Source: Girardia tigrina
Taxonomy: Eukaryota
Reading direction: 5' to 3'
DNA: 64,000 nt
Assembly (NCBI GenBank): GCA_001938485.1
Contig: MQRK01244371.1
Coordinates: forward strand, 1-64,000
The notes under the pieces: generated by a model
Databases searched by the model: none
Told to the model about the DNA's origin: nothing
What the model saw: only the letters and a program-made list of their open reading frames with translations
In this document: in pieces, positions 5,583 through 64,000 of the stretch
Numbering within the stretch: position 1 is the stretch's first letter
How the letters are laid out: the number at the start of each line of letters is the position of its first letter
Made by a program: the position numbers and the translations under genes

Positions 5583-5613
<31 letters not shown>

Positions 5614-10929: not shown

Positions 10930-12210
10930 TTAGGTTGGTCGAAAAATAATGGCGGTTTTTGGACACAAACTTCAAAGATGTGAAAATTCACAGAAACAAA
11001 AGTTTATTAATCAAAGTATGAACCGTTGGCAGCAATACATTTTTGCCAACGAAAAACAAGTTGTTTTATTCCATCAGCATAAAATGCATCGGTTCTCGAA
11101 GCGACGAATTCTTGGAAGGCATTTTGAGCATCATTTTGGTTTTTGAAAATTTTTTCATGTAGGAAGTTGTACAAATGCCTGAAAAAGTAGAAGTCCGTTG
11201 GCGAGAGGTCTGGTGAATATGGTGGATGAAGCAGGGTTTCATAGGCCAACTCATTAAGCTTTTGAAGAGTCACCTTTGAAATATGAGGTCTAGCGTTATC
11301 ATGAAGAAGGATGGGACTTGTTCGATTGACCAATCCCGGACAACGGGTTTTCAATTTTTTATGCATTTCATCAATTTCATGATAGTACCTCTCCGCTATG
11401 ATTGTTTCACCTGGATTCAAGAAACTATAATGGATGATTCCAGAATCACACACCAAACTGTCACCATAACCTTACGGGGTGTTAGTTTCGGTTTTGGAAA
11501 GTGTTTCGGTACTTCATCTTTGTCCAACCACTGTGCAGATCGACGTCGGTTATCATACAGGATCCATTTCTCATCNCAGGTAACAATACGATCAAGAAAT
11601 GGACCGTTTTTATTGCGAAGATGATTGGCAGAACAAATTTCATAGCGTCGGTTCTTTTGATTTTCATTCAAATCATGTGGAACCCATTTATCAAGTTTCT
11701 TGATTTTTCTAAATTGTTTTAAATGATCCAGGACTGTTGAATGACTAATGCCCAACCCATCTGCAAGTTCTCTGATTGTTGTACGGGGATTTTGTTTCCA
11801 CCATTGTCCTAAAATTGTCGTTGTTCACAGCAACTAGACGACCACGACCTTCTTCATCTTCAAGGTTTTCATCTCCATCAGAAAATTTTCGGAATCATCG
11901 TTGCATTGTGCGCTCAGAAGCTGTTCCCTTGCTAAACGCTTTATTGATATTGAGAGCCGTTTCTGCTGCTTTACGGCCCAGTTTAAATTCGTACAAGAAA
12001 ATTGCTCGAATTTTAATTTTTTCCATTATTAATTTAGCACCGTAAATATTCTAAAAAATAAAAGCAATATGTTAATAATGGCTATATGAATATACAGCTG
12101 GGCATAAGATTTCAAATAATATTTAACACTAATGCATTTAAACTTATATACATATCAAAGTAGATAAACAAAGTATAAAGCTCAAAAACCGCCATTATTT
12201 TTCGACCAAC

Positions 12211-16487: not shown

Positions 16488-17474
16488 TGGTGGCAGCACT
16501 AGCGGATTCAATCACGAACCGACTGATTCCCGACATGTTCCAAATCAGAGAAGACCTAGAGAAATTTATTTCTCGCAGCAGAAGATATTTTGAAGCAACC
16601 GAAACTAATCAAAAGAAATAGCAAACATGTATTTACTCCATGATACATGAAGATCTCTTGGAAACATATGAGAACACAACTGGTAAAGCTGATAATTTTG
16701 AGGATCGGCTAAGACTAGCGTTTGAGAAGCCGAGAGCAGCCGCGACGGATTGGGAAAAACTGTTGATTTATCGCAGAGGTGCTGATAACGCGCAGACTTT
16801 TTTTCAAAAAAGTAGACCGGCTGGTAAAAAATGCGTTGTCGCATAGACTCAAGGAAGAAAAGCCGAAAGCTCAAATGTTAATTCATTGCATCGATGATGA
16901 AGATGTTGTTCGTGAAATTAAATTACGGAAATTAAAGAGTGTTAAGGAAATATCTGAGTTCGTAGCAATCGTATACGAAATAAACCACGAAAAGAAGAGC
17001 AGAATCAATGCTTTCCGAAGTTATCGAGATGTTGTTCAAAACAGCAGGGTTCCTGATGTAACTAAAAAATGGGTAAATCAGACTCAGTCGGGAAAACAAC
17101 TCCTAAGAGAGGAATCAACCGAGTCCAAATGTTATACTTGTCATCAACGAGGACATTTCAGCAGAAATTGCCAACAAAGAAGACCTGTGCAGTGTTGGAA
17201 TTATATAGAGACTGGGCACATCAGTCGAAACTGTCCTAACAGACAGCCATTGGTTTGTTTCTTGTGCGGGAAGAAGGGACATAGGCGCATTCAATGTCCA
17301 GAGATACGCTGTGAAAAATGTGGCCGGAATGGACATCTAGCAGCGGCATGTTTAGTGAACTCTAGCAGACAGAATAATGCTTGCGACAATGGAAGATCGA
17401 GAATGCAGTACAATGATAGGAAATTTAAAATCAACACAATGAACGAAGATGAAGAACGCACATTTAATGATAAT
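16463..17474 (+). pseudogene. gag: Gypsy gag with multiple CCHC zinc knuckles, disrupted
   Basis: IPDMFQIREDLEKFISRSRRYF. Four knuckles: CYTCHQRGHFSRNC, CWNYIETGHISRNC (degenerate), CFLCGKKGHRRIQC, CEKCGRNGHLAAAC. In-frame stops and one frameshift. Confidence 0.9.
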
Positions 17475-17972
17475 TGTAAAAGAGCTAACTGAAAACGTGT
17501 TTCAGTGAACTCCTTTAACGTAACAAAAAAAAAGATAAATATGTAAAGAACTTTTATTTTACACAATATAAATAAACATATATAACAAAAAAATCACATA
17601 CGAGAGAGAGAATGGCATGGATAAATCTCGATTTCGATTAGTGTTTATTGTTCTAAGGTTTCAAAGGAACAATCTTCTGTTGTAACAATGTCGATGGAAA
17701 CGTCAGAGAATCATTTGGTTGCACAACGAGATTTTGAGGAAATAGATTTTATGAAGAGATGCACTTTCAGTAGGAATAGTGATAAATTGGTTTGCTGAAA
17801 ATTCCTTTACGAACCGATTTTACAGGAAAATGTTTTGTAGGTAATATAATATAGTTGTAATCCGTAAGATTAATCATTGTTTTTATCGATCCTCGTTTTA
17901 TATATATAATTATATATATATATATAATTTACTATATATAATTTATATATAATAATTAACTGGGTCACTACA
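17475..17972. mobile_element. Solo LTR (498 bp) of another family inserted into gag
   Basis: TGTA...TACA termini and 5-bp target-site duplication ATAAT (17470-17474, 17973-17977). A second copy is at about 25308-25700. Confidence 0.9.
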
Positions 17973-17999
17973 ATAATGAAGAAAAAACGATAAGACGTA

Positions 18000-19359
18000 C
18001 CCAAACGACTGGGCTCCGCCAATTGGGGAGTTGGTTGGAGCAGAATGCCATTGATCTTAGAAGATAATTCTCACGGATTCGGATGCGAGCTGGATGTGCG
18101 AATGATGAATAAGGTATATGGATTTGTGAAAAAGAATTTGGAGCAATTATTCTATATTAACGCGTTGATTGAGGATCAGAAATCAGAGATATGTTATAGT
18201 AAAATGCAGAGGCGTCCGAGCGTTACAGTGGAAATTCAGGGAAAACAGTGGAAGTGTTTGTTGGATACAGGAGCAGGTGTTAATGTTATGAGTAAGAAGT
18301 ATTATCAAGATTTGAATAATTTAGTGTTAGAAAAATGCGATATCAATTTGAGAGGTGCCAACGATGGAAAATTGAAAGTATTGGGTAAAATAGAGGTAGA
18401 AGTAGATATATGTCAGACAAGAAAAGCAGTACCATTTATCGTTGTGGAGAGTGTGGTTCCAGAACTGATAGGAGGCATAGTATTCATGAAAATTTTCGGT
18501 TATTCCATACAAAGGAACGAATCTCAAGACAATAATGTATCAAGGGAAGCACGTGGAAGTGTGTGCAAAATTGAGGCGAAATTCGGCAGGGTGATAAGGC
18601 CAGGAGAAAGATTAAAAAGAGCGTTAGATTGCATAGGTAAAGTAGATTCAAAACTGTTAGAGGTCATTCAGAAACAGGTTAAAGTATTCATGGCTGACAA
18701 ATGGGATATCGGATGTACCAGTCTAGCAAAACATCATATTAAGACGAATGGAGAGCCAATTAATTTAAAACCTTTTCGTCAACCAATGCATCTCGAAGAA
18801 AAAATCATGGAGACTATAAAAAAATTGTATGATAATAATATCATTCGGAAGTGTAATTCACCTTGGAACACACCATTAATTTGTGTGTGGAAAAAAGAGA
18901 AGAAAGATATTCGTATCTGTTTGGATTTTAGGCGTTTAAATGCAATAATGGAGAGACAAGCTTTTCCAATGCCTAATGTTGATGAGATGTTGGATGCTTT
19001 AGGAGGTGCAAAGTATTTTAGCTCGATTGACCTTGGAAATGCTTATTATCAGGTTGAGCTGGACGAAAAATCTTATGAGAAAACGGCCTTTTCTACAAAG
19101 CAAGGACAGTATTGTTTTACTCGTATGCCGTTTGGTATAGCGGCTGCGCCGGGAACTTTCCAAGAGATGATGACAAAGGTAGTCGGAGGAATCAAGGGTG
19201 CCACTGTATACTTAGATGATATCTTGGTGTACATAAAAGATCAAAAACACTATATTGTTTTGAATCAAGTTTTAGATAATATTAGGAAAGCAGGATTGCG
19301 GGTGAACCCAGAAAAAATGTCAATTGTTGAAACGGGAAATCAAATACCTTGGACATATA
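18000..19359 (+). pseudogene. pol: Gypsy pol: aspartic protease and reverse transcriptase
   Basis: LLDTGAGVNVM, SPWNTPLICVWKK, RICLDFRRLN, FSSIDLGNAYYQ, MPFGIAAAPGTFQ, VYLDDILV. Frameshift near 19317. Confidence 0.96.
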
Positions 19360-20219
19360 CAGGGTACGGCAGCTATTTGAGAACACGTAATATAGACACC
19401 ATATCTTTTTGTGTGTTATAATTACATAATTTTATTTTTGCTGGTAGACATGGCAGAAGCTACTCTTACGAANNNNNNNNNNNNNNNNNNNNNNNNNNNN
19501 NNNNNNNNNNNNNNNNNNNNNNNNNNNNNNNNNNNNNNNNNNNNNNNNNNNNNNNNNNNNNNNNNNNNNNNNNNNNNNNNNNNNNNNNNNNNNNNNNNNN
19601 NNNNNNNNNNNNNNNNNNNNNNNNNNNNNNNNNNNNNNNNNNNNNNNNNNNNNNNNNNNNNNNNNNNNNNNNNNNNNNNNNNNNNNNNNNNNNNNNNNNN
19701 NNNNNNNNNNNNNNNNNNNNNNNNNNNNNNNNNNNNNNNNNNNNNNNNNNNNNNNNNNNNNNNNNNNNNNNNNNNNNNNNNNNNNNNNNNNNNNNNNNNN
19801 NNNNNNNNNNNNNNNNNNNNNNNNNNNNNNNNNNNNNNNNNNNNNNNNNNNNNNNNNNNNNNNNNNNNNNNNNNNNNNNNNNNNNNNNNNNNNNNNNNNN
19901 NNNNNNNNNNNNNNNNNNNNNNNNNNNNNNNNNNNNNNNNNNNNNNNNNNNNNNNNNNNNNNNNNNNNNNNNNNNNNNNNNNNNNNNNNNNNNNNNNNNN
20001 NNNNNNNNNNNNNNNNNNNNNNNNNNNNNNNNNNNNNNNNNNNNNNNNNNNNNNNNNNNNNNNNNNNNNNNNNNNNNNNNNNNNNNNNNNNNNNNNNNNN
20101 NNNNNNNNGTACGTGTTAATATATGTAAAATTTTAAATTGTAATAAATGTTATTTTTCTGTTGTATATTCATTTTTTGAACTTTATGTCATTTTGTTCTC
20201 AAATAGCTGCCGCACCCTG
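19360..20219. mobile_element. Tc1/mariner-type element (interior mostly N-gap) inserted in the RT
   Basis: 26-bp TIR CAGGGT(A/G)CGGCAGCTATTTGAGAACA, with TA duplicated on both sides. Removing it restores YLGHI|VNKDGVKTDPSKI. Confidence 0.92.
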
Positions 20220-23758: not shown

Positions 23759-25088
23759 ATCAGACCCCCCTGCGAAAGCAGAACTGCCTAACAAGCAAGA
23801 AAAAAAATCAGCGGAGTTTGCAATTGCGTAAATTATGAGTTTTTAAATTTCCATTCACATTTGCAGTGACTGTTGTCATTCAAATATTTGATTGGATATG
23901 GCCCTTTGAATTTATGGTCAAAATTTCTGGCTAGTTGATTTTTAATAAAGCAATGACTGAATTTTAACGTTTCTTTATTTTTACGATCAGCTGGAAAATC
24001 CTTTTTTGGAAAAAGTTTGAAGTTGAATCTGGTATTCGTAAGTTTCTCGAAAGGAGATCTATTGTCGATCCAATTCGGTTTTACTCTAAGAGCTAAACAG
24101 GCTTCATCTAGAAAATCTAACCAATTTTCATTGTTACCTTTTGTCCTAAGTGTCTGTTTTAAATAACTATGAAACACCTCAACTTTTCCATTTGCTTGAG
24201 AGTTATATGGACAAGTTCGGATTCTTTTGATATTGTAATTCTTACAAAGGTTTTTAAATTGATCACATTCAAATTGACGGCCTTGGTCGGTCGTGATTAC
24301 TTTTGGTGGACCGTATCGTGCAATCCACTCTTTCTCAAAAGATTGACAAATGGCATTTGTAGATATTTCCTTCATCGGGATAACTTCGAACCAGTTGGTT
24401 TTTCTGTCAACTATACTTAACAGATACTATAATTTTTATTGACAGACAAAGGTCCTGAAATATCCATGTGGATATGTTCTAGTTTATCCATTTCGATGAA
24501 ATGACTTGATAATACTTTGTGTTTTTTAGTTTGTTTTGATAAATTACAATTTAAACAATTGTCTACCCATTTCTTTATGTCTTTTCTAATGCATTTCCAG
24601 CAAACATGTTGTTTTAATATTTGATAGGTACATTTAGAACCATAGTGTCCGAAATCATGCATGGTCTTTAAACAATCTTTTCTAAGGTCAGCGGGTATTA
24701 AAGGTCTTGGATTCCCCGATATAGATAAATCATACCAAACATCTTTATATTTTCGCAAACGTAAAGAAGTATTCGCACATTCATTGACGGTATCTTGTTG
24801 TTTACCTATTAAATCTCCGATATTCCAATATTTTACGCAACTGATTTGGTTTAAAACCGATCTAGATAAATAATCAGCTACAATATTAGTACTCCCTGAT
24901 ATATGTTGTATGTTACATGAAAATTGTGACAAAAAACAAGTCTGAGTTAATTGCCTCGGACTAGGATTGACTAATTTAAGCGCATTAAATAAAGGTGTAT
25001 GGTCCGTTTTTATTATGAAACTTTTATTTTCTAACAAATATTGCAAATGTTTCACAGCGCGATACATGGCTAAAATTTCCTTGTCAAA
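23759..25088 (-). pseudogene. pol: Gypsy pol fragment (RNase H-integrase)
   Basis: FDKEILAMYRAVKH, IKTDHTPL, HISGSTNIVADYLSR, HDFGHYG..CLNC, IHMDISGPL, ITTDQGRQF, QANGKVEVFH, FKGPY. Confidence 0.95.
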
Positions 25089-25300
25089 TGTGGCTACGGA
25101 ATTTTTTTCATTTCATAACGAATTTTATCTTCAAAAAATTTTTAGCAAATGATAAATCTTGAACATTTAGATTTTCTAAAAACGACATATTGCATTTGGA
25201 CCAGATATATAAAATTTTTCATTACGAAAACTAAAAAAAATTAATCTTTTGTAAAAACGGAAATATATTCCGATAACGAAAAAAATATTTTTGTTTGAAT
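25089..25300 (-). mobile_element. Partial second copy of the 23132 LTR abutting RNase H
   Basis: Direct repeat beginning TGTGGCTAC. Confidence 0.85.
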
Positions 25301-37300: not shown

Positions 37301-40300
37301 AGCGAGCACCATTAACCATTATTGTCTGATCAGCTGCATTTTCAAAGAAGAATGGTTCGATGAACCATCCAATTATAAACCTGTGTTTTCTATCAAAATT
37401 ACTTCTTGTGTGAATTTTGGGACACCCTTTAGAAACTGATTAATGTGATTAATAATATAATTATAAAATGAAAACTATGCTAGAAATTAAGTAACAACTA
37501 AAAAGTAAAAAAAAATTCAAAAAGAAAATGAAAATTTAAAAAGCCAATTTTAAATAAAATCATTTATAACAAAATATTATTTTTATAAATAACAAAATTA
37601 CAGTATTATATCCAGTTAAAGGGTAACGAATCTGAGATGAACGAGGAATTCCTCGAACACTCTGACTACCGGGAGAATGTATTATTGGAGTATGTATTTG
37701 TGGTACTGGAAAAAGTTTCAACCATAAAGAATTTCATTAGTAATTATAGAAAACCTGAACGTTTCTTGTCGAGATCCAAACAGTCAACAATTTTGTCCAC
37801 CCAAACATGCATCAACTCGAGCGAGTTTGCACTCAAATAATAAACTCTATTATTACCTTTGTCATCAACCGTCTGAATTGAAAAAACATTGCTTTTGTTA
37901 ACTTTTTTTCCAACATCAACGGCTAAACTTCCAAAATTTTCCATATTAATGTTACCTAATTAACATTGATCATACTTTTTTTACAATATATATATTGACT
38001 GACTTCTTATTCATAATTACAGAAAAATAATTACGCATTATTTAATAAATTAATTATTTTATAAATCATTAAATTAACTATTAAACTCTTACCAAGACTT
38101 CTGGTTTCTGGCGAAGGTTTATTCTTGAAATAAAGGAAATGTATATCATCGGGTTTATCAAGACTTTTAAAAAGTACAAAATATCGTTTTCTCCATCTCT
38201 GAAAATATTCTCGTAAAGAAATGCATATTTTTGTGGTTTAATATTAGAAAAAAGGTTGTAATAATTACAGTATCACTACAGCATAAATACATAAATATTG
38301 AAATTTTTATTAGTTGCTTTGAAAACTAAACAAATTTTTTACTAATCAAAATGAAAGATTTTTATTACTAAGTCGCAGTGTGACAAAAAATATTGAAATT
38401 TAATGAATTTATTTAAAACTTGATTGAAGATTTAATTTAAAATTTAGGAAAATTTTACAATCCCGGAAGCGTACAGAATGATATAAATTTCAAAGACTTT
38501 CTATTTTCTAAAGTTTGGAAAGTAATTTTTAAAATTATTATTTTAACATGGCTCGTCAAACAATTTAAAGGAAATTTATTCGCATTTATTACTATTTTCA
38601 AGATTTTATTAACCATGGCTGATCAATAAGTTTCCTGATTTGAATAATGCAGCATTTCTAATAGACATTATCTACCCATAAAGCAGTAGATGAAATGTGC
38701 ACAAGCGACTTTTGTGCTTATGTTTGCGTAATTGCAAATCATTAAACAATATATATATATATATATATATATNNNNNNNNNNNNNNNNNNNNNNNNNNNN
38801 NNNNNNNNNNNNNNNNNNNNNNTATATATATATATATATAATCATAGCATAATAAAATAAATACCGTATATGGATATTTTTTGATTATCCACATACAGAG
38901 GTCAGAACCATAATTTTTATGATTAGAAAAGTAGTCTAACGCACCAACAGATAATTGTGCACATTTCTGGAGGATGATGTACAAAGAACTTGAAGAACTT
39001 GAGGTGGCAGTGAGGCAATTGAAGAGCTGTACAGCAACAGGCTCAGATGAACTTATTCTTTAAGTATATAAATAGGGAGGTACGAATATCATCTCCCTAC
39101 TGGAAATATGCTTCAGGAATATATGGGACGGTGTGGAAGAATTCCCACCAAGTTGGAGAGAGGTCAGAGTGGTAATTCTCTTCAAAGGGAAAGGATTTCG
39201 TCAAGATCCGAATAACTATAGAGGTATTTTCCTTCTAGACGTAGGCGAAAAGTCTTTGCGAGATTTATTGCTAATCTTATTACTCCAATTATTGAAGCCT
39301 CACTGAACGAATGGCAATTTGGATTCCAGACAGGCAGAGGAACGCAACAAGTTATCAGCACCTTGAGAAAGCTACAGGAAGAAGCAAGATACATATTTGT
39401 AATTTTTATAGATCTGGAGAAAGCATTCGACAGTGTCCCCCATGAGTCTCTCAGGAGCTGTTTAAAGAGACTAGGGATAAGGGGGAGAATGTTTGAAGTC
39501 ATCAAAGCCTTCCATGAGGTATTTAAAGGTTCAATAGGGGATAAAACCTTCAATATGAACAAAATAGTTAGACAAGGTTGAGTTTTAGGTCCGCTCCTAT
39601 TCAATATCGTCATCGATAAAGTCCGGAAACGAGAGATATTGAATGGTCTCTCAGGAGGAGCAAAGATGACTATTGAAGATAGAAGCTGCCTCCGAGATCA
39701 ACAGATTGGCATACGCGGACGATCTCTGATAGACACCGACTGGAACAATCTAATCAGAAACCTAAATCTACTGAACGACTCATTTGTAGATTTAGTACTA
39801 AAGATCAATATCAATAAGAACAAAGTTATGAACCTAAACGGAGATACCAAAGTTCACACCACCGGACACCAGCTTGAGACTGGTATTGAGTGGGTAACCA
39901 AATTCGTCTATTCGCCTCAAATGAAACCGCTGAAGATAAGATAAGAGAAAGAATACAAAATGGAATCAAGAAGATCAGGGACCTCAAACCGGTTCTGCGA
40001 GGCACCAAACTCTCATTACGGAACAAGAAGAAGATTGTCAGCCCTTGCATACTTCCCGTAGTATACTACAGCTGCGAGAGTTGGCGAACAGGTAACAAAA
40101 CAATCAAGAAACTGGTTGCATTTCACAATTTGTGTACTCGCACAGTCATGAAAGTGCAGAAGACTGAGAAGATACAGATGGATACTATCGACATTAGACT
40201 CCCGCTTCCCATGGATATCATTGCAAGCAGAGGACTTGCCTATCATCGCAGGTTGGACACCTCTGATACACCAAATATTGTGAGGTGTGTGTGGAGAGCA

Positions 40301-43300
40301 ACAATGTTAATGGGAAAGAAGATCAATGCGAGCAAGAAGCAAGCTTTCTCTGAATACATCAGAGTGGATATACAGTGGCTCTTTGAGGATAGTGCATCAT
40401 ATGAAGACTTCATACACCACATTGTCCACAGAGACCCTACTGTAGAAAGATAGCAATACATCAAATCCTTAATAAGAAAAGGGAAGCAGAACAGAACAAG
40501 AGCCAATCTCCCGAAATTACTCAATGAGAGAGATAAACTCCTTCAATGTACGAGAGAAGGTTGCTTTAAGGAGTTCGCCGAACAAAGGAGCTGAATAGAC
40601 ATCTCAAGTGGAAGCACACGGAATCCACAGTAAGCATCCCGCTTCAGCTTCCACAAGATGAAAAAACCGTTCAAATATTCCAAATGCAGCAAAAGATACG
40701 AAAAACGAAAGGATGGTTCACGAGGCATCTGAGTAAAGATCATAGAATAGAAGTAAGGGAGAATATCAATCAAAATCCGATAGAATCATCAGCGCAATCC
40801 AACAGAAGAAGCGACAATCCAGACTGAGACGAAGAACCCACACTCATCCAAACGACCGACTTTCGCCAGCAACAGTCACCCCGACTATATCAACGGTGGT
40901 GGAGCAAACAACTTATCCCGAAGATACACATTTGTCTTTTAGTATCGCAGATCCAAATGCGAGGGGAGAGTTCAAATGTCCCTTTCGCGACCAATACAGT
41001 TAAATGGATGCTCAATCATGGTACCACAATCCATGATTCGTCGTTTGCAACAGGGAAGCCCAAGAAATTTCGGAGACTGAAGCACTCCGTCCCCGTAGGA
41101 GGCCTATCGGGGTCAGCTAGCACTCTTTAGTTTGGGTGGACCCTCTAAAGAGCCTAGTGGCTCAATACCATTCGAAAGAGATGGGAGGACCACATTGGAT
41201 AGACAAATATTCATCTCAAGACCGAGTTTAGTGAGCATTCACAATCAAATCGATCGGGTAAGTATATTGATCATTGGTTACACTGTAAAAATAAACTCTT
41301 CTGTTTCAAAAGATGAGTTTTCTGTTTTACAGAAAGGCTTTGATTCACACTATGAGCGGCAGTTTTGTGAATCATTATTAAGACACTACAACCAATTAAT
41401 AAACATTTAAAATGAACAAAGTAAACCTGTTTCATTTCTTAAAATCTTTAATTAAAATTTTAAAAGCATTTTGCTATTATTATCCAATAATATCTTAAAT
41501 TAAGATAAATAAATTTTCTATTTTAACCCGTTGACTACCGGAGACCCGTATATGGGTTTACGGCTTATAACTTTTGAACGAAGAGGAATTTTTAGTACGG
41601 TTTTTTTTCTAAATTTTACTATTAACATATCTCCAAAAAAATTCGGTAGTCAACGGGTTAAAATAACTTAATATCAAAATAACATTATTATTAGCCTTCA
41701 CCAGACTAAATAAAATATATATGTGTGTGTAATTTTATATATAATTTTATTTAAGACATTTAAAAGCTAAATATTCTTTTTTTAAATTAAAACTTAAATA
41801 AAATATTCTAAATAGAAATAATTTAGATAACATCTTATATTTACGGTAATATTTAAAATTTATTTTCAATATAAAGCCGAATTATTGGTAATGAAGTGTT
41901 AATAATTAGGCAAAATCAACTAAAGAAAAATGGAAATAATTTTTCTCTGGAACAATTAATTAGGTAACCAAAAATAAATTTATTTACTGTTCATAAAAAA
42001 AAGAGAGTAAATTTTCATAAGAAAATTTCGAAAATTAAAATTTTAATATATTAAATTTACCTGTGAAAAAATATAATATAAATAAATTTTGTAATAATAA
42101 AAATTGTAATACGTTAAAAATAAAATTTCACGTTATTACTTTAATTATAAAACAAGTTATAATTTTTTCATAAATAACGTAATTATCTACTTTTAAAATA
42201 TAATCATAGTACCTTTTTGGATGTTTTCATACATCAACCAATAGTAATTAATTTTTTTACAAATCGATTAGAATAAAATATAAAAAATGGTAATATAACA
42301 AAAATAAAATGTTAATAAATCACCAAATTTTTGATCAATAGACAATCTTGGTTTTATTTAATATTTCAAGTATAGAGGTAGTTTTAATTAGTTCGTTTTG
42401 TTTGTTTTTTACAGACTGCTTGTAGTGTCTTATTAACACAGATTCACAGAACTATCGTTTAGTGAATCGAAATCCTTTTGAAGAACAGAAAAATTCTCGT
42501 CTACTTTATCGTAAGGATTCTTAATGGAATAGATTAAGTAAGAATTTTGAACACTGGTCATGTCGTAAGAGTAGAATCTCATCAATTTCAAATTTGGTGT
42601 TTGGATAAACACAATTTTTACATTTTCTGCGGCGTTTTTAACTGTGAAGTCTTCGAGACAATTGTATAGTTATAGCTGCGATTATTTTTATAACAAAGCA
42701 TTTAATTCTTGTAGAACATTAAATGCTTAATGAAACTTGAGAAAGAAAGAAATTTGGATGTTGATGGCTTTTATGGACATAACAGATGCAAGAAAACAGC
42801 TCTTTTCAAGTGGATCAAGTATTTCAGTGATTGCCTTGAAAATTGCATGGAAAATTTAAGAACAAAACGACCGCAGACTTTTATTGTTGACGAAAATAGC
42901 AAACCTATATAGTCACTTGAATAACTGATGATGAACTAACTTTAGAAAAATTTTTAATGCTCATATTTCAAAAAACATTTTGGATTGCTGAAATTGTGAG
43001 CCAAAATTAGTCTAAAGTTGCTGATAAATGACCAAAAGTAAAGAGAATCAAATGCTGCACCAACTGAAAAAACTGCTCTCAAAATCCCGTTGCTCTTGAA
43101 AGTATTCTCAAAGGTGATGGACATTGAACTGAAATCACGGAGCAGAGAAAAGAAAGAAGATGAACCACTGTCAAACTGTCAAAAAACCAATCATAAATAA
43201 AATTTTTGCTGTTTGATTTTATTTGAGACATTCATTGTGCAGTATATTATGAATTTCTCATGGAGAATAAAAAATGAATGCTGTATTCTATCTGGAAGTT

Positions 43301-51744: not shown

Positions 51745-53024
51745 TTCTAAAATTTAAATTAACGATATTTAATTAAAATCAAAATTTACTTTTGATAAAA
51801 ATAGGAGATATTTTTTAAATGAAATTATTTATCTTAGAATGATTTCGATTGATCGTATATTATTGATAGATCTCTTTGTAAAATCAATAACATAGGTCAA
51901 TCAATTCAAATAACTTAAACACTTTAAAATTCTACAGCAAGAAATGCTAATTTTGATTCATTTAAACGAATTACAAAGAAAGAAATATATTATTTAACTT
52001 TCAAAATAATAAATTTGCTTTATTAATCAAAAATATAATGTCAAATAATAAATTAGGTTTTTTCTTTAAAAAATATTCAATTGGAATTACAAAAATTTTC
52101 AATTAATCAATTATTTAATTTAAAGTGTTTTTAGTATTAATATTCAATTAAAAATTTTTGTAAAAACAAAATTAAACAAAAATTTATTTTCATTTAATGC
52201 AATATAAAGTTGGTCTGAAATAAAAATGTAAATTGTAACTTTTCTTCGTTAAACAAAACATATAATTTACGAGACATCTTGCTCCTTCGATTGTGTGGAA
52301 AACATCAAAAGCTATACTGTCATACAGTATATTGAATCGTATATTCTGCATAGAATATAAACCATACCATATACAGGTCTGTCAAGAAAGTTTTGACCGA
52401 TGGTTTTCTATAAGTATCTAGTGAATGCATTGATAAATGTATATGATATTTACAGTATAAATAACATATACATATGTGAATGATTTTATCAAATATAATT
52501 CAAAAATAATCCTTTTTATTGTAATTATATTTGTTTATTTTTAAACTACTTTTTTAAATTTATTATAATTTCATAATTTATTTTATATCCAATTTTTTAT
52601 AAAAAGTTGACTTCATTGACACAAAACAAAAAATTGACTTTTATTGACCTTAAATTTTTTTTCCTGGATAGATTTTACAAAATTGATAAAAGTACCGTGT
52701 ATCTTGTGCAATTTTGATTTCCATAAAAAAGTTGAATTTATTGACTATCTGGGGCCCTGATGATAACAGTTAACCGTACTTTATGATATTAACAAAGTAA
52801 TTTTACTCCGTTTATACAGTTGCTTTCATGATGGGGTAATTCCGGTGTGTGTGGTACTTACTCTCTACAGATTATTTGCTAAATAAACCTTTTTAATTAA
52901 ATTCATCCTTTCTTAACTCATATCTCCATTCTTTTCATAACCTTATATATCTTCTCTCTATTTCTTGATTAGGCAACAATAGCCAATTTTTTCTATATTC
53001 GGCCATATGACTGAATACCAAAAT

Positions 53025-53280
53025 GTCACGACCCCTTCGAGCAATAACATTTTTGAACGCTCATGAGCCTCCAGTGGTTGTTAAGGGTCAACAACGACCC
53101 GGTATATTTTACATTTATTTTAATGGATTTATTTTGTTAGGCGGTCGGACGAATCTCCCTCACCTGACATCTAACAAGTAGTGCCAAGTTTGGAGTGCCT
53201 TCTGGTTTCTGTAAAGTTGGGAACGAGCTGTTGGCCCCTAACTAGTTTAGTGTCACTCTGGGATGATTTTTAATGGTATT
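53025..53280 (+). repeat. Diverged inverted repeat, arm A (partner 56985-57255)
   Basis: GAGCCTCCAGTGGTTGTTAAGGGTCAACAACGACCC vs reverse complement GAGCCCCCAGTGGCTATTAAGGGTCAGCCACAACCC. A second block GGACG..ACATCT..AGTGC..GAGCT..GGCCCC..GGGATGAT is also colinear. Confidence 0.75.
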
Positions 53281-54691
53281 AATCAATCATTTGTGTATTT
53301 CCTTTCTGTGGGCGCCCCTCATTCCTGTTCAAATTGTTAGACTCTGCTCTGATGCTTTTTATAATGCAATTCTAAATGTAAAGCATTATGTTAATTATCG
53401 TAATTGTCATGCATAAATATGTCACTCTGCCTTCTGCCTGTCTCGCTTATGCTTCGGTTAAGTGTATGTATGGTGGTTCTCTTTTACGTTGTTCCCCTCG
53501 CACCCTGTTTCTGTTTGAAACTGATATTAACTGGTGTGTCTGTCAAAAGTCTCTGAAATAATTATCAGTAACTACTAAATTAATTATTAAGTATGATTGT
53601 TATTTGTAGTAATTAAATCTTTCAATTATTAAACACGATTGTTAATTATTAAATTTTCAACTAGTCAACAAAATTATTATTTCTAAAATTAAAATTTTTT
53701 TTAAATATTGACTATTCAGCATAATTCGAGAAGTGATAGATATATTGATCATCAATAAGTCGAGATATAACATGCATGTTAGTCGTTTATCAGTTATTTA
53801 TTGGTGCTTGACCAATCATATCACTGCTTCTCCCTCGCTCTAGTCGCACTTTACGACTGTATATAATTATTGATTTTTATTCTTCGTGGATTGCTCACCA
53901 TAATTTCTAAATTTTATTTTTTCTTTCTCGGATATTGAGGAGATCGTCTATGTATATGGGGAAACATATCAACTTTCCTCACGGTCTGTATTATTTTCTT
54001 AACCTTCGACGACTGCACTTTCAACGTTATTCGTTTACAGTACCTCTCCTCTGGACTTGTTTGGATGTCTCTCATTATCGACGACGAACCTAGAAGCTAA
54101 AAGGAAATGGCAAAGGGTTGTCAATAATTATTATAATTTTAGTTATTTATCAAAATTAATAAAATGATTTATTGTATAATACATTTATTCAAGGTAGAAA
54201 ACAGTTATAAAATTTACATTCGGCAAGTTTCTTGATTCTGGAAGAAAGTTCGTTCATCTAGCAAAAATGGATTCACAAATGTGGGTGGTCCTCGTGAGTT
54301 TTGACGTCGAGTTGATTCTTGTTTCTGATGCAACAATACAATCGTTTACAGTTCGCGCCGCGAAAATCTTTTCTTGGAAACTAGGTTGATTTCGTGAGGA
54401 AATTGACGGATTGTTGTGGATTTGGTTCGTTTCTAAGTTTTTGTTTGTTCAAAATTTTGTTCGTGATATAGCAGTGTTCTAAAAACAATTATGGTTCTGG
54501 TTGTTATTCTACTATGTGCTTGCATTTTACTTGTCGCGTCGTGATTGATGTTTTACTGTCTTTCGCTACTGTCATTTGTTGCGGTCCACTATCGCTTAAA
54601 CCTCAGTTCAAAAACACCCACAAAACAAAAATAAACAAAAGAAAAAAGAAAATATTATTATGTAATACATATATTTAATCTCCAATAAAAG

Positions 54692-55340
54692 TTATGTTAT
54701 TGCCCTGAACCCCTCACGGTTTGAGTATAAGTCGCAGACATCGCGGTTGGAACTGTAAATACAATATGAAGGAAAATCAGGCAATATCAAATAAAAACTT
54801 ACCCGTTGAAAGGAATCAAACAATCGATCCTCCAGGTATAGCCCGTTGTAAGGCCAACCACTGAAGAGGACCCACAAGGTTGTGATGTATTCTCCTGAAA
54901 AGTTATTAACCCTAAAATAAAATAATTAATTAAAAATAATTAATTAAAAAACCAGACAGAAAATGATAAAGTTAATTACTGGACGAGCCGTTAACGTTAT
55001 GAGGTCAACAGACCCTTCACGTGTAGCCCCGAAGAAGACGAATTCCTGAAGGCCACCCCCAAGACCCTGACGCGTTTCGCTGAGGAGATATACCCCTGCG
55101 AAGATATACAAAATTATTTAAAAGAACAAAGGCTAATTAAAAAGTTACCACGAGTCAGGCCCCACAAAGCGAAAAATAACATCACGCGATGATTAATCCT
55201 GAATAATCGGTGACAAAGAACCGCATGACAAGCAGTCACTGTATGGTACGACAGTCCTGACAAATGAGAGCCCAAAATTACTAACAAGAGCGAATCAGAA
55301 GAGGCCACGACAAAGCACACCCCGATAGGTGAGATGATGA
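54692..55340 (-). CDS. Orphan spliced ORF; exons 55340-55149, 55095-54980, 54894-54803, 54752-54692; start not identified
   Basis: Three GT-AG introns (53, 85, 50 nt) join four GC-enriched exons in one stop-free frame ending ...NREGFRAIT*. Confidence 0.5.
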
Positions 55341-56984
55341 CTGTTATAAATATAACATTCAAACGCACAGTTTTCAGAACATTTTTTACGACGAACGTTT
55401 TTTGCAAAATTTCCAGAGCATATTTTTGAATATTTTAAAACGCGATCATCTTGAGCAGTACCAACGAGAAGAAATCCGACGAGAATCCCGACGTCATATT
55501 CATCAAAGGATATCGAACGACGAATTAAGAGCGCAACTGAACCTTTCCGACGAGTGAAACTTACCCGACCGAGATATTTAAGTTATTGTAATTCTATTTT
55601 GTTTAATTTTGAATGATGCGACTCGATATAATAAATATAAATATATATAAATATATAAATATATATCGATATATAAATATTTGAATTTTATTTATTTTCT
55701 TCTATTTATGTGTAAATATCCTTTATGATAATTAATTTTTGCGTCATACGTTTGTTTTTTGTCACAGAATAAATTAGTCCTTCGTCCCGCCGTCGTCATC
55801 TTCCACAATGTCCCGGGATAATTTGCGATCGAACGCACAATGGAAAAACGTAGGAAGTTATGCGGACCCGATAATTGTTAATGCGGTTCCGATATCGATG
55901 GAATCGTTTATTACAGGAGATTACACCGGGTCACTTCTAGTTAACGTGGAGCTGCGAGCCCCTCCGCATCAGACAATATAGTACATAGCGACAGAACCCT
56001 CTTTTAATGACTATTTGTTGCGTCATAAATATAATTTTAATTTTTACATAATAAGTCATGTAAACCCGAGGGATCTAGATTGCATAAGAGACAAGCGATA
56101 ATGTGATAACCTGTAAATAAACCTTGAGAAGACTGCTGGTCGGCATACTGCAAATATACCCCTCATGACACGTTTGTTACTGATGAATACCGACTCTTGA
56201 GAAGGCTTGATTTTGTGCCATGAATCGAAGGTGAAATTTTGGGTATTTAAACAATCGTATTTTGTCGGTAATTTTACGATCATTTCACCGATTTTAGGAG
56301 TAATTGATTTTTCGATAGGTAAATATTTTAGTGGAGTTTATATTTTTTATAAGTGATTATTTTAGTAAATTAATGGAATTATTTAAACTACATATTTTAG
56401 TTAAAGTTAAGTTTACGGAGTTATTGAGAATTTCACTTATTAGTCCATGAATTTCTTTTAATATGCGACAGAACGGTGTGTTTTAAGAGTTAATTGCCAT
56501 GATGGTCTCCGATAAATATAGAGGGACTATTTGTAAATAAATTATGAATGAAATTTATATTAATCTTACTCAGTTAAAATAAGTATTTATTCGTCTAAGT
56601 TCCTCAAATTTTAGTTTAGCTGAGAGAATCGAATTCGTTTACATTGATTATTTACATAGGACTAAGGTTATTAACGAGGAGCGCGACAGTTTATCGTGTA
56701 GTAGTGATAACTTAAGGATGATTTGCCCATGATTTTAACAATTTTGGTTTGGATGTTGAGAAGTTGAAGGTAATTATGGGGGGTTACTACTGAAATACTG
56801 ACATAAGTGAAGTGAGCGTGGTACAGATGAATAATGTAGAATACGCAAGTGAAGTAGGGGCGTGTGATGAAATTGTGTGAGATATCTGTAAACGCTGTAA
56901 GTGCAATAAGCCCTATAATATATACGACAGTGTAATAAGTTCTATACCATACACAATGGTGCAGCGAATTGCAAGTTTTAAGTT

Positions 56985-57255
56985 ATCATCCCCGATCGAT
57001 AATGAGTTAGGTGGGGGGCCCTTAGCTCATCCCGTCTATACGCGAACCCTATGGCCCTTCAGACTCTGCACTGCTAGGCAGATGTTGAACGAGAAGAGGC
57101 GTCCAACCCATAAATAATGACAGAAATAGTTAGGTATTAAAGTGAATCATAAAATTAGCATAAGTTAAGAGTGGGTTGTGGCTGACCCTTAATAGCCACT
57201 GGGGGCTCTGAGCACTTAAAACTGTTATGAACAAAAGGGGCGTGCCACATTGGCC
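56985..57255 (-). repeat. Diverged inverted repeat, arm B
   Basis: Reverse complement aligns with 53025-53280. Confidence 0.75.
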
Positions 57256-57670
57256 TCTACTATTCAACTCCTCGTGCATTGGGTCGTATGACGTCTACAT
57301 GAATAATCGGGAGATATTATTTTCTAGACTGGAAATGAATCATTGGTAAGTTTAATTAATTTCTTTATATTTTAATTAATTTTTCTCACTTCTTTCAGGG
57401 TGAATATCTTCGCTCAGAATGGTTCCAGCTCAAAATGGGTCGCGCTCATGAATTCTCCTCACAGGGAGCTATCGGAAGAGGGTCGGGTATCAATTTCCGG
57501 TTCTCGGGTGAGATCTGGGGCAACTTCTAATATTTTGATTTATTTATGTAATCTCTCAGAACACGAAAGACGGCAATAGAGCTTTCGGTCGCAACGAGAA
57601 AGTGCGAAATGATGCAGATAACACTGGTCGGGGTCCTTGTCCGTCGACTACATTTGTTATACGTTTTTAA
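57227..57670 (+). CDS. Orphan spliced ORF, 112 aa; exons 57227-57345, 57399-57507, 57560-57670
   Basis: GTAAGT..TTTCAG (53 nt) and GTGAGA..TCTCAG (52 nt) introns give an uninterrupted ATG-to-TAA frame. Confidence 0.5.
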
Positions 57671-58569
57671 ATATATGTATTCTATGATATTAGTGTTGCT
57701 TTTTCTTTTGTATATATTGTTGAGTGTTAGTTGTGTTTTTATTAAAAATGATAAAATAACTCTGATTTTAGTTTATAAAAATATATTTATGTATCTACAA
57801 TTGATTACAAGTAAAAGGCTTGATAGAAGAGTAGTATTTTATTTGGCCCCTGACCGATTTTATATTGAAACACCGAAAGCCTTTAGCGACAACTCGGGTT
57901 AATTAAATTTTTAAAGGTTTTTCTTCACACTTTACAGCGTGATTTTTTATATAAGAATACGATGATTTTAAATAATAATTACCCTTTATATAATAATTAT
58001 TCTTATAATTACTTTTTATCTCTTTCTCTTTAATTCTCAACTTGGACACTATTTTAGTGTGATTATTGTTTCACAAATTATAGACTATTTCAGTGTGATT
58101 GAAAGTGTGAGTATTCTTGATTTTTGCTCGCTTAAATATAATCGAGAATAAATAATTTATACGATGTCTCGACTTCTCGTCTTTCTTTTCTTCAAAATAA
58201 ATTCTCTCTAACTTTTAAAATAAACCATCCTTGAACTTAAAAAACTTCTAAATTCTTAATAAATAATAGCATTTTTATATAATTTTTATGTACTTCTTTG
58301 TCTTTAAATTAATTATATTTACTTTCCTTATTCTTTGTTTATCATTTCCTCTTAATCAATTCAATTTTACTTTTCTTTTATTTACTTACACTTTTCTATT
58401 TTCTTATTTATTTATATAAAAAATATAATTTTATATTTTTTATCATAAATATTCCATCTATGAAAATATAATTATTTAATAATATTTATTAATTTAAAAC
58501 AAATACATAATAAATTATAACTTTTAGGATATTTCCTCAACAATATGTATATGTCACATTTAGTGGATA

Positions 58570-59010
58570 TCAGACCGTAACAGGAAGTGCCTGCAGACCG
58601 TTCCGTAGAATTTGATCGTCCTCGGAAGTCGGACCGAGTTGAGCACGATGACGCTGTAGAATACTTAGGTGCTCCGACGGACATCGGTCGCTCATGCTGT
58701 AAGCGGAGAAAAGCGCATCAAAGTGAAATGATGATGGTTGTCTGCGACTCCAGATTATTGTTTGTTGAAGATCCGTGTACGGTGTTGTCAATTCAATATT
58801 GAAGTATTCTTGACACTCCATGGGAATGGATGGTGAAGATTGGCAGCGACGTGAAAGAACTTCGTCCTTTCGCAAGAAATCTTGGATAATTTGAAAACGG
58901 CCTCGACTTGTCGAAACCACATTTGCACCGCATCGAAGTATTGTGGCAGTTAGGTAGAGACTTGGTTTCAATCGAGCGAACTAGTTCTGACACCATTGTA
59001 AATTTCATCC
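58570..59010 (-). pseudogene. gag: Gypsy (Mag-like, DUF7041-type) gag fragment, frameshifted
   Basis: LPQYFDAVQMWFRQVEAVFKLSKISCERTKFFHVAANL, then PYTDLQQTII..LFSAYSMSDRCPSEHL..DDQILRNGLQALP. Confidence 0.8.
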
Positions 59011-62199: not shown

Positions 62200-62370
62200 A
62201 ATGTTGTCTTCATTATGAATGGTCTTCATCCGAATATTAAATTTACCACAGAATTGGAAGTAGATAATAAATTTCCCTTTCTGGACAATCTTTTCACTAG
62301 GATGAATGGAGGCTATAAAACTGAATTATTCAGAAAGGCAACAGATAAATGTCTTTACACAGCACCACGA
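62200..62370 (+). mobile_element. Penelope-like element RT (thumb) fragment
   Basis: MNGLHPNIKFTTELEVDNKFPFLDNLFTR..YKTELFRKAT matches the PLE RT C-terminal motif. Confidence 0.88.
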
Positions 62371-62385
62371 AAACCGATTTAACAG

Positions 62386-63500
62386 AACTGGAAGAAAATA
62401 ACTTCATGAAATTATCGATTCATTCAATTATTCCATTAACACTAGCGGATAAAACAGTTCTCAGTGGATCAATGGGAACATTAAAATCCGACGATTTTCG
62501 AGTGGTTTTAAGTGGAATTCAGTTCTTCGCAGATGTCATTCTCGAAAATTTTCAGGCACCGGTGTTTTTGCAGCATCAAGAAGTATTACGAATATTATTG
62601 CGATTTGTGTCTAGTCGGCAATATTCAACAGCGGCTGTTAGAGCACTCTTGAAACTGGTCCTTAAAATGCTGCAATATATCGAGATGTATTTAGATCCAA
62701 ATTTCTTTTCCACAAAAAATACATACGGAATAATAAAGTTCAATATGAATTTGAAGACGATTACCATTGGGTGTCAGATGAATTACTAAATTTTCAATAC
62801 GAACCAAATATGGCAATACCAACTCAGTTACCGGTTCCGGTATTTTCTTTACACATGATTTACGTTTGTCTTTTTTTCCAAATTGCAGATTCTAACTGGA
62901 TAAATTTGTTTCAGGTTTTTTCGAGTAGTATCAAATTATTTCGAGAAAGTCTGGGAAGTGATTTTAAACGACCATATTTATTAGAACTATGGAATCTAAA
63001 AGATCAACTATATGAAGTCTTTAATCTGTGGTCGTGTTTATTGGCTCAATATTCAATTATGGAAGATATTAACTGTTGTCAACTTTCCGATAATCGCCAG
63101 ATCTATTTGTACTTGTTCTCAACTTTCTGGGATTTCGTTTCCAGTTTATATTCTCCTGAAATGGCACTGAAACATATGCAAGAATTTAGTAAAACTGAAC
63201 TGTGTCGAGCTCAATTCGATAAATGTCTCTTGTTAGCTCTTGGTAAAAAAAGTCTGTCACTTACTAATTACACTGAGTTATTTGATCAAACTCTGTCTAA
63301 AATAAACACGAAGACTGATGTAGTTGTGCGAATCTTTGATTAGATTCTTTTTAAATAATAATGAACCGATAAAATTTGCAGAACAGTGTGTTACGACAGC
63401 TCAAGAGTCACTCAATTACCTGGAATATGTTTATGGGGTACGAATTTGTAAAGAATGTCGTGAGAAATTCCGATCATTCCGCATCGTGGATACGCGTCGT
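62386..63500 (+). pseudogene. RTTN: Rotatin (Ana3) N-terminal-region fragment with frameshifts and a stop
   Basis: PLTLADKTVLS..LKS..FFADVILENFQAPVFLQ..YLDPNFFSTK, QLPVPVFSL and NRQIYL..FVSSLYSPEMA are colinear with vertebrate rotatin as recalled. Acceptor TTTAACAG ends at 62385. Frameshift near 62725, TAG at 63341, further shifts after. Confidence 0.8.
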
Positions 63501-64000
63501 TAATAATTCGCTTGAGGATTATTCCGAAACCGAGAGTGTCAATCGGGAAATTGTTCCCGGGAAATCAAAATTCAATGAATTTTCTTTTAATCAAATCAAT
63601 CTCTTTTCGATTAATCAATTCAATCCGATTAATTGCTGTAGCAATTCTTGCAGTAAGAGTGAGTTGAAGAAACAGATTGTGTTGAAGCACAGAGACGATT
63701 CCTTGAACGATATTCCCTTAACTTGTGAGACGGTTGAGACCGGTCTTGAATTGAGAAAGAAACCGAACTTCAATATGAAATCCAATAAATACAATACAAA
63801 TAAATATATCTCATCTTCCTCTGAGATACAACATATCCCACATCAAGAAAATTTTATAAGTCGTATCTTTCTTCCGTATTACCAGCGGGTTATCCACAGT
63901 AAATTAGGATAAATACAAATTAACAAGTGATAGAACCAAAAATGTCTTCTTTTGCCAAATTATGCTTTGGTTTATATAATTATATTTATTATTTACTTAT

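What the first reader, a model, noticed from the sequence alone, without database searches (positions are those of the whole stretch)
52900..57700. Cassette of orphan mini-intron genes on both strands, associated with a diverged inverted repeat
Seen: about 5 kb of short GC-enriched blocks separated by AT-rich ~50-nt GT-AG introns. At least two sets splice into stop-free frames (minus 55340-54692; plus 57227-57670). A ~260-bp module is present twice in inverted orientation. I recognise no protein family and no transposase, RT or capsid motif. Inference: cargo or long-LTR sequence of a large mobile element (giant Gypsy elements with multi-kb LTRs are known in planarians), or a remnant of an integrated DNA virus or Polinton-like element. 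Either would carry its own small spliced genes. This is the best candidate for an undescribed system in the window.
Basis: partly seen in the sequence, partly recalled or inferred. Interest (0 to 1): 0.72.

Follow-up and report, generated by a model that had tools for sequence, protein, structure and literature searches.

The report
Giant retrotransposon ends carrying antisense introns
The region is not a cassette of new genes but two long end-repeats of a giant jumping gene, one inserted backwards into the other, and each carries conserved backward-facing introns that likely make a spliced non-coding RNA, which may help regulate the element.

Summary
The region is two related long terminal repeats (LTRs) of giant Burro-type Gypsy elements, nested in opposite orientation. 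Element 1 is a solo LTR (54577-57247, TG...CA ends, CATT duplicated on both sides). It sits inside element 2 (53024-54572 plus 57252-~57716).

Related LTR ends are followed by a primer-binding site (160 matches, 0 control). One 28.7-kb copy has two LTRs around gag, ubiquitin-like, fusion-protein and protease domains. The inverted 260-bp module is the structured 3' end of each LTR.

The mini-introns are real but lie antisense to the element. All 18 LTR clusters have them (31 antisense, 0 sense), most with a 116-121-nt exon and a poly(A)-like signal. Two junctions appear in one presumed RNA run, one contig each.

The frames are not conserved: no codon periodicity, and indels ignore frame. The 184-aa frame exists in 1 of 17 copies, and the plus-strand ORF crosses the insertion boundary.

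Best reading: a conserved spliced antisense non-coding unit inside the LTR, like Drosophila TART/HeT-A antisense RNAs; its function is inferred. I found no description of it for Burro in seven literature searches, nor in this scan's earlier notes.

The parts
54577..57247 (+). Element 1: solo LTR (2671 bp) of a Burro-type Gypsy element; TGTTGCGG...CGTGCCA (relatives end CGTGACA); LTR sense is +
   Evidence: Ends and TSD. Copies 90-97% identical elsewhere. Orientation from PBS after the 3' end and from the pol-proximal junction before the 5' end.
54573..54576 (+). Left copy of the 4-bp target-site duplication CATT
   Evidence: Sequence
57248..57251 (+). Right copy of the 4-bp target-site duplication CATT
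   Evidence: Sequence
56985..57247 (+).
   Evidence: Hit by 15-17 of 17 other LTR clusters. 10 of 42 predicted pairs are compensatory in 22 copies.
55580..55880 (.). Central AT-rich tract plus a partly conserved block; candidate promoter region for the antisense unit (inferred, not mapped)
   Evidence: Block 55779-55878 recurs in divergent LTRs; AT-rich repeat 55626-55680
55096..55148 (-). Antisense intron b (53 nt), the best-conserved part of U3
   Evidence: Aligned in 30 copies and 17 clusters; skipped by one X1 contig
54980..55095 (-). Antisense exon, 116 nt here and 119-121 nt in most subfamilies; nearly indel-free but non-coding
54912..54979 (-). Antisense intron c (predicted); acceptor conserved, donor shifted 4 nt in this subfamily
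   Evidence: no exact RNA joint seen
54753..54802 (-). Antisense intron d (50 nt)
   Evidence: skipped by one X1 contig
54666..54675 (-). Poly(A)-signal-like motif AATATATGTA followed by a T-rich tract; predicted 3' end of the antisense RNA inside the LTR
   Evidence: AATA[AT]ATGTA lies within 160 nt of the LTR 5' end in 13 of 18 clusters; 1 elsewhere on antisense and 1 on sense in 51,925 nt
53024..54572 (-). Element 2, 3' part of a related LTR (sense is minus); 53024-53270 is its R/U5 module, the other arm of the inverted repeat
   Evidence: uninterrupted relative L171/L188 is collinear across the insertion
57252..57716 (-). Element 2, U3 part resumed after the insertion; its antisense introns read on + (57346-57398, 57508-57559), with AATATATGTA at 57670-57679; 5' end lost
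53009..53023 (-). Probable decayed primer-binding site after element 2 (TTTTGGTATTCAGTC; intact relatives read TTTTGGGGGCTCAG..); no internal region follows
   Evidence: 52761-53023 has no match to the internal regions fetched
57717..58070 (.). Unrelated high-copy repeat that abuts and truncates element 2

Best explanation
The region is a solo LTR of a giant Burro-type Gypsy retroelement inserted backwards into a related LTR, and the mini-introns likely belong to a spliced, polyadenylated non-coding RNA that is predicted to run antisense through the U3 part of each LTR.

Shown: the nesting, the LTR identity and orientation, the antisense-only introns, and the lack of coding constraint.

Inferred: the genomic RNA is the sense strand, so the spliceosome never sees these introns and reverse transcription copies them intact. 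A promoter in the AT-rich middle of U3 would fire backwards; the RNA would be spliced two or three times and end 55-120 nt before the LTR's 5' edge.

The mechanism I favour (about 0.35-0.4) is that the unit serves the element. It gives the LTR's backward transcription a gene-like, cleanly processed path that stops inside the LTR. This would keep U3 active and stop antisense RNA from running from the 3' LTR into gag-pol. Selection would act on splice signals, spacing and the end signal, not on exon sequence.
For: LTR IDENTITY. 10 of 15 loci with both ends found have an exact 4-bp TSD; two of the other five are a 5' and a 3' LTR. LTR end plus TGG.GGC gives 160 matches against 0 control, and 43 junctions read like TGGGGGCTCAGCCGGGA. 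The same purine-ending flank precedes the LTR start after pol in 8 of 22 loci. C227859 holds a 28,717-bp element: LTRs 2473/2528 nt, 97-99.7% identical where not N, TSD TAGT. Its domain order is gag, CCHC, ubiquitin-like, fusion protein, protease. dUTPase-like, RT, RNase H and integrase were seen in another copy. This matches the Burro order in PMC6431247 (passages).

NESTING..

ANTISENSE UNIT. 31 intron-like motifs lie antisense in the first 1100 nt of 18 of 18 LTR clusters, 0 sense; shuffles gave mean 1.2, max 3. GT sits 119-121 nt after acceptor b in 13 of 17 clusters and at 116 nt in 2 more, while 0 of 115 exon dinucleotide positions are kept in 16 or more of 17. The poly(A)-like motif is in 13 of 18. 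Two exact GT-AG joints appear in X1, and 0 intron-less genomic copies were found in 184 loci.

NON-CODING. Substitutions by codon position are 0.251/0.274/0.270. Frame-keeping indels are 5 of 37 and 0 of 7. The 184-aa frame is in 1 of 17 copies.
Against: RNA support is thin: one contig per joint, short sides (30 and 23 nt), one run only guessed to be RNA, and no strand or 5'/3' end data. Laying three of the same runs plus X5 on a younger LTR gave no splice joint, and one X2 contig crossed intron b unspliced, which sense RNA or DNA would also give.

The intron filter was written after I had seen these introns, and it missed two of the window's three. Acceptor b positions were picked by motif, and one cluster (L164, mutated acceptor) was left out. 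The LTRs share ancestry, so 18 clusters are not 18 independent events.

A 100-aa ATG frame survives in 7 of 9 close copies. That is what 4-10% divergence would leave by chance, but it is not excluded as a subfamily peptide.

No result bears on function. The window's own subfamily is tied to internal domains only through relatives (93% over 81 nt at the PBS end; 82-84% over 550-640 nt at the other end).
Confidence: 0.7

Rival explanations
1. Same structure, but the spliced antisense RNA is a self-limiting regulator. It pairs with the U3 end of the genomic RNA, or feeds PIWI/piRNA silencing, and keeps the element latent, as proposed for TART/HeT-A antisense RNA and for HBZ RNA and BLV AS1/AS2.
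For: The antisense unit overlaps U3, which is in the 3' end of genomic RNA. Planarian LTR elements, BURRO1 among them, are de-repressed when SMEDWI-2 is lost (PMC8532177 passages). Precedents.
Against: Complementarity is automatic for any antisense RNA and needs no introns or fixed exon length. No small-RNA data were seen.
Confidence: 0.3
2. The AT-rich blocks are conserved as DNA: an old ~170-bp tandem enhancer or nucleosome-phasing array in U3. Splicing of stray antisense RNA is a by-product.
For: The intron+exon unit is about 170 bp; exons 2 and 3 begin alike and share GGAGGGTC. TTAATTA motifs are the most conserved letters of intron b. Exon length is fixed without coding or clear RNA structure.
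Against: It does not explain strand-specific GT donors, YAG acceptors and branch-like motifs in register, the downstream poly(A)-like motif, or the exact GT-AG joints.
Confidence: 0.2
3. One reading: small spliced protein genes carried as cargo, or a Polinton or DNA-virus remnant.
For: Stop-free spliced frames of 184 aa and 112 aa exist in this copy. A 100-aa ATG frame is in 7 of 9 close copies.
Against: No codon periodicity, frame-breaking indels, and no common open frame across subfamilies. The plus ORF is chimeric. No Pfam hit for 55114-55434. Flanks lead to Gypsy gag-pol.
Confidence: 0.04
4. The units are Ginger-like or other non-autonomous DNA transposons (TGT...ACA ends, 4-bp TSD, introns; features recalled).
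For: TGT...ACA ends and 4-bp TSDs.
Against: The inverted ends are only about 7 of 11 nt. The same unit occurs as paired direct repeats around gag-pol, with a PBS.
Confidence: 0.01

Closest known systems
Burro (GYPSM1) giant Gypsy retroelements of dugesiid planarians (PMC6431247, passages read; Grohme et al. 2018 not held)
   Same: About 29-30 kb; long LTRs; accessory ORFs before gag; order gag-CCHC, ubiquitin-like, fusion/env-like, protease, dUTPase-like, RT-RNase H-integrase.
   Different: LTRs here are 1.8-3.5 kb. BCL2-like, MATH and BIR domains were not detected by Pfam in the frames scanned. No antisense intron unit is mentioned in the passages read. No direct sequence comparison with published Burro was possible.
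Drosophila TART and HeT-A antisense transcripts (PMC1636488, PMC2615633; passages read)
   Same: Non-coding antisense RNA from the element's terminal non-coding region, with several short introns (mostly 53-104 nt in TART) of similar size and spacing across divergent subfamilies; role unknown.
   Different: Those are telomeric non-LTR elements. Here the unit lies in U3 of an LTR, has a near-fixed exon length and a conserved end signal, and travels with more than a thousand LTR copies. Transcription start and end are not yet mapped here.
Spliced LTR-contained lncRNAs of maize LTR retrotransposons (PMC13192763, passages read)
   Same: Introns inside LTRs; spliced non-coding RNA contained in the LTR.
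   Different: The maize pipeline kept transcripts running in the element's own direction, introns average 1.3 kb, and the word 'antisense' does not occur in that text. Here the introns are about 50-85 nt and antisense.
HTLV-1 HBZ RNA, BLV AS1/AS2, micropia and plant Ty3 antisense transcripts (PMC7601775, PMC7264820; passages read)
   Same: Antisense transcription tied to LTR elements; spliced or nuclear lncRNA roles.
   Different: HBZ and AS1/AS2 start in the 3' LTR and (recalled) run into the internal region, and HBZ and the plant antisense ORFs encode proteins. This unit is predicted to start and end within U3 and has no conserved ORF.

Membership tests
Solo LTR of an LTR retroelement | TG...CA ends with a 4-6-bp target-site duplication | tested here: met
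   Window: TGTTGCGG...GTGCCA with CATT on both sides; 10 of 15 complete loci have a 4-bp TSD
Solo LTR of an LTR retroelement | Homologous repeat occurs twice, in direct orientation, around an internal domain elsewhere | tested here: met
   C227859: LTRs 2473/2528 nt, 97-99.7%, TSD TAGT, 28,717 bp. This is a related subfamily, not the window's own.
Solo LTR of an LTR retroelement | Primer-binding site after the 5' LTR | tested here: met
   160 vs 0; 43 junctions. The tRNA-Pro label is recalled from the MLV PBS and was not tested against a tRNA set.
Solo LTR of an LTR retroelement | Polypurine tract before the 3' LTR | tested here: inconclusive
   A fixed junction ending GGAGGAA precedes the 3' LTR in 8 of 22 loci and 3 of 64 starts. 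It has only 7 purines, short for a PPT.
Ty3/Gypsy | Order protease-RT-RNase H-integrase | tested here: met
   L142: dUTPase-like, RVT_1, RT_RNaseH, H2C2, rve; protease upstream
Burro | Giant size (about 30 kb) with an env-like fusion domain between gag and protease | tested here: met
   28.7 kb; Monjiviricetes_fusion E 2.6e-82, and two hits of about 1e-25 in C227859
Burro | Ubiquitin/SUMO-like and dUTPase-like domains at the described positions | tested here: met
   ubiquitin E 1e-4 and 3.9e-5; dUTPase E 0.005 and 0.0017; all below Pfam cut-offs but in the expected order
Burro | BCL2-like, MATH, BIR or ankyrin accessory domains | tested here: inconclusive
   No Pfam hit in the frames scanned; the upstream accessory ORFs were not scanned and no profile-profile search was run
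Burro | Sequence or tree placement with published Burro-1 to -4 | not testable with these tools
   Reference elements are not held
Protein-coding gene | Conserved frame, codon periodicity, frame-keeping indels | tested here: not met
Spliced antisense lncRNA (TART/HeT-A type) | Canonical introns on the antisense strand, conserved across subfamilies | tested here: met
Spliced antisense lncRNA (TART/HeT-A type) | Transcript shown with strand, start and end | tested here: inconclusive
   Two joints in one run, contigs only; none
Polinton / integrated DNA virus | Long TIRs, 6-bp TSD, linkage to PolB and capsid (recalled) | tested here: not met
   The inverted arms belong to two elements; the TSD is 4 bp; linked ORFs are gag-pol
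Known Rfam RNA | Match to a curated family | tested here: not met
   Only a chance-level mir-297 hit outside the region; 0 hits in four LTR loci

The most novel reading that the evidence does not exclude
Burro-type LTRs carry a self-contained, gene-like antisense RNA unit: two or three mini-introns, a 120-nt exon of fixed length and an end signal. It is kept by selection on splicing itself rather than on sequence or protein, and the element uses it to manage its own promoter and silencing. More than a thousand LTR copies spread it through the genome.
Probability: 0.35. Interest if true: 0.7.

Novelty: new variant of a known kind. Interest (0 to 1): 0.47.

Why it matters
At locus level this is ordinary: two nested LTR relics. 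At family level it bears on an open question. Why do retroelements keep introns on the strand they never copy? The TART and HeT-A papers call the role of such introns elusive.

Here the same design appears in an unrelated, env-bearing LTR lineage. It has many divergent subfamilies, at least 1,333 copies of the U5 motif, and (if the host is a planarian, as Burro implies) RNAi and known PIWI control. That makes the question testable.

It is also a practical warning: these LTRs look like multi-exon genes and will seed false orphan-gene and lncRNA annotations.

Tried and rejected
ORIENTATION. I first read the LTR in the TGTCACG-to-CAACA direction. A PBS search in that direction gave 8 matches with no PBS, and a purine-tract search gave 3. 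The opposite direction gave 160.

STRUCTURE IN THE 120-NT EXON. Mean folding z was about 0 on both strands for 16 copies. A 5-bp hairpin in 13 copies was not above shuffles (80 of 500), so it is not claimed.

THE 39-NT GT-AG STRETCH at 53102-53140 is the variable AT-rich loop of the R/U5 module; I do not count it as an intron.

DATABASE SCANS. Rfam gave nothing relevant, ARAGORN nothing, and Pfam nothing on the window frame 55114-55434. I ran no further search on frames that fail conservation tests.

RNA RUNS. The second lay of runs, on L138, gave no splice joints. Contig depths are not used as expression evidence. Runs X3-X5 laid one record or none.

LITERATURE. Seven searches (listings seen) and passages of nine papers gave no description of antisense introns in Burro LTRs. 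The 'Burro' hits in PMC8797187 were a surname. The original Burro paper and its supplements and Repbase reports could not be seen and may bear on novelty.

EARLIER SCAN NOTES. The eight notes shown for this genome concern other elements; sequence and word look-ups found nothing.
Full report
OBSERVATION. The region alternates GC-rich blocks with AT-rich GT-AG stretches. The minus strand has introns at 55096-55148, 54912-54979 (or 54895) and 54753-54802; the plus strand has 57346-57398 and 57508-57559. The inverted module is real (83 nt at 76%; about 250-260 nt aligned). No long ORF, Rfam family or tRNA lies in the region.

TWO REPEATS, NESTED. Searches of the own genome showed that all parts are multi-copy. 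Copy boundaries define element 1 at 54577-57247, with TG...CA ends and CATT on both sides. Ten of 15 loci where both ends were found have their own exact 4-bp duplication. Element 2 starts at 53024 in the opposite orientation. An uninterrupted relative (L171/L188) matches 53024-54268 in collinear pieces and continues into 57336-57716 about 550 nt later; three more loci show part of the same join. So element 1 inserted into element 2. The inverted repeat is the homologous end of each, and introns on both strands reflect opposite orientation. The plus ORF starts inside element 1 and crosses the duplication, so it is a product of the insertion.

THEY ARE LTRS OF A BURRO-TYPE ELEMENT. Tests for a primer site or purine tract in my first orientation failed. 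In the other orientation, the end GGGKCRTGACA followed by TGG.GGC occurs 160 times against 0 for the reversed control. All 43 junctions inspected read like TGGGGGCTCAGCCGGGA; the tRNA-Pro label is recalled. Downstream in C183032 lie accessory frames, then capsid-like, zinc knuckle, ubiquitin-like, viral fusion protein (E 2.6e-82), protease and dUTPase-like domains. The protease-dUTPase piece has at least 152 matches. RT, RNase H and integrase follow, then a long C-terminal frame and a fixed junction ending GGAGGAA before the LTR start in 8 of 22 loci. C227859 holds a whole element of 28,717 bp, with LTRs 97-99.7% identical over the non-N parts and TSD TAGT. This is the domain order given for Burro in PMC6431247 (passages), so the host is probably a dugesiid planarian (inference). 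The nearest links of the window's subfamily are 93% over 81 nt at the PBS end and 82-84% over 550-640 nt at the other end. A 29-nt U5 motif occurs 1,333 times.

THE 260-BP MODULE. It is the most conserved part of the LTR and abuts the PBS, so it is probably R/U5 (inferred; start and poly(A) sites not mapped). In 22 copies it folds on the sense strand: 96% of cells pair, and 10 of 42 pairs are compensatory. Of 500 shuffles, 0 reached the cell count and 17 reached the pair count, and slid controls paired 38-51%. Many changes are shared by clades, so the number of events is smaller than the cell count. A structured leader is expected for an LTR element.

THE INTRONS ARE ANTISENSE AND CONSERVED. 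I collected 20 complete LTRs in 18 clusters. Intron-like motifs in the first 1100 nt numbered 31 on the antisense strand, in 18 of 18 clusters, and 0 on the sense strand. Sixty local shuffles gave mean 1.2 and max 3; the rest of the LTR had 3 antisense and 10 sense. The filter was written after seeing the introns, and the clusters share ancestry. A less circular test uses spacing: GT lies 119-121 nt after acceptor b in 13 of 17 clusters and at 116 nt in 2 more, followed by an AG about 50 nt later in most. No exon dinucleotide position is kept in 16 of 17 (L164 left out because its acceptor is mutated). AATA[AT]ATGTA, followed by a T-rich tract, lies near the LTR 5' edge on the antisense strand in 13 of 18 clusters, against 2 elsewhere in 51,925 nt. 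Run X1 (RNA by guess) has one contig skipping 54753-54802 and one skipping 55096-55148 with GT-AG ends. No intron-less genomic copy was found in 184 loci. A second lay on L138 showed no joints.

NOT PROTEIN-CODING. In the window's 184-aa frame, substitutions against 8 divergent copies were 0.251/0.274/0.270 by codon position. Five of 37 indels kept frame, and 0 of 7 among 8 close copies. The frame is complete in 1 of 17 copies. The central exon has no frame open across subfamilies and flat periodicity, 0.349/0.378/0.351. A 100-aa ATG frame persists in 7 of 9 close copies, consistent with their low divergence. The exon shows no significant structure.

HOW IT MOST LIKELY WORKS. Established: an LTR is rebuilt from sense genomic RNA, so sense introns would tend to be lost while antisense introns are copied unchanged. 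Shown: antisense-only introns, fixed spacing, an end signal and no coding constraint. Inferred: a promoter in central U3 makes a spliced, polyadenylated antisense RNA that ends inside the LTR. For its purpose I favour containment: a gene-like path that processes and stops backward transcription before it reaches gag-pol and keeps U3 active. The main rival is self-silencing through PIWI or duplex RNA (PMC8532177 passages show PIWI control of BURRO1). A DNA-level ~170-bp array with incidental splicing is third. Odds: nested Burro-type LTRs about 0.95; real spliced antisense non-coding unit about 0.7; containment function about 0.35-0.4.

COMPARISON AND NOVELTY. It works like the multi-intron non-coding antisense RNAs of TART and HeT-A, whose introns keep size and spacing across divergent subfamilies with unknown role. 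It is not a member of that class, since those are non-LTR telomeric elements. Maize LTRs give spliced LTR-contained RNAs, but with long introns, in a sense-filtered analysis. Retroviral and plant antisense transcripts are LTR-driven but often coding. Seven searches found no account of this unit in Burro, but the original Burro paper and its supplements were not available. Earlier scan notes did not cover it.

VERDICT. A known element class and an ordinary locus, with an apparently undescribed conserved antisense intron unit in its LTR. Interest 0.47.

Noticed in passing
L072-L076, L078 (LTR 5' edge): One subfamily has one or two extra copies of a ~59-bp unit at the LTR 5' edge, each ending in an attachment-like TGTTRCGG/…ACCGYAACA motif, so the integration end appears duplicated.
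   Followed up: no
G000:C214077 (L121, L132): An LTR is preceded by the 3'-type junction and followed by a PBS, which suggests a tandem or three-LTR element sharing one LTR.
   Followed up: no
L140:5466-7715, L143:5291-7780, L138:2741-4159: A long frame of about 750-830 aa after integrase, with a hydrophobic segment, is well conserved between copies (79-91%; 51% in L049) and has no Pfam family above cut-off.
   Followed up: partly
L122 minus strand, between PBS and gag: Several 100-160-aa charged, coiled-coil-like accessory frames lie upstream of gag; not scanned.
   Followed up: no
L044 (G000:C254742): This solo LTR has a 6-bp repeat (TAGAGA) on both sides instead of 4 bp and lies near gag and pol pieces of the same family.
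   Followed up: no
window 54577-55485: Several copies are 93% identical to element 1 only up to 55485 and about 78% at the 3' end, so LTR subfamilies appear to have recombined at this point.
   Followed up: partly
window 52515-52767 and 57717-58070: Two other high-copy short repeats flank the nested LTRs, both containing GGCCCCTGA/GGGCCCTGA-like motifs.
   Followed up: no
window 58500-59000, minus: By eye, a decayed gag-like frame of another Gypsy element; no Pfam hit for the 63-aa piece scanned.
   Followed up: partly
window 62349-63912, plus: Three consecutive open frames of 146-225 aa; the two scanned have no Pfam hit; possibly a host gene or pseudogene.
   Followed up: partly
window 4897-6082, 11007-11824, 16767-19421, 23833-25112, 39222-40453: Fragments that read like Gypsy gag/pol, a mariner-type transposase and a non-LTR RT (labels by recalled motifs): the window is largely transposon relics.
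   Followed up: no
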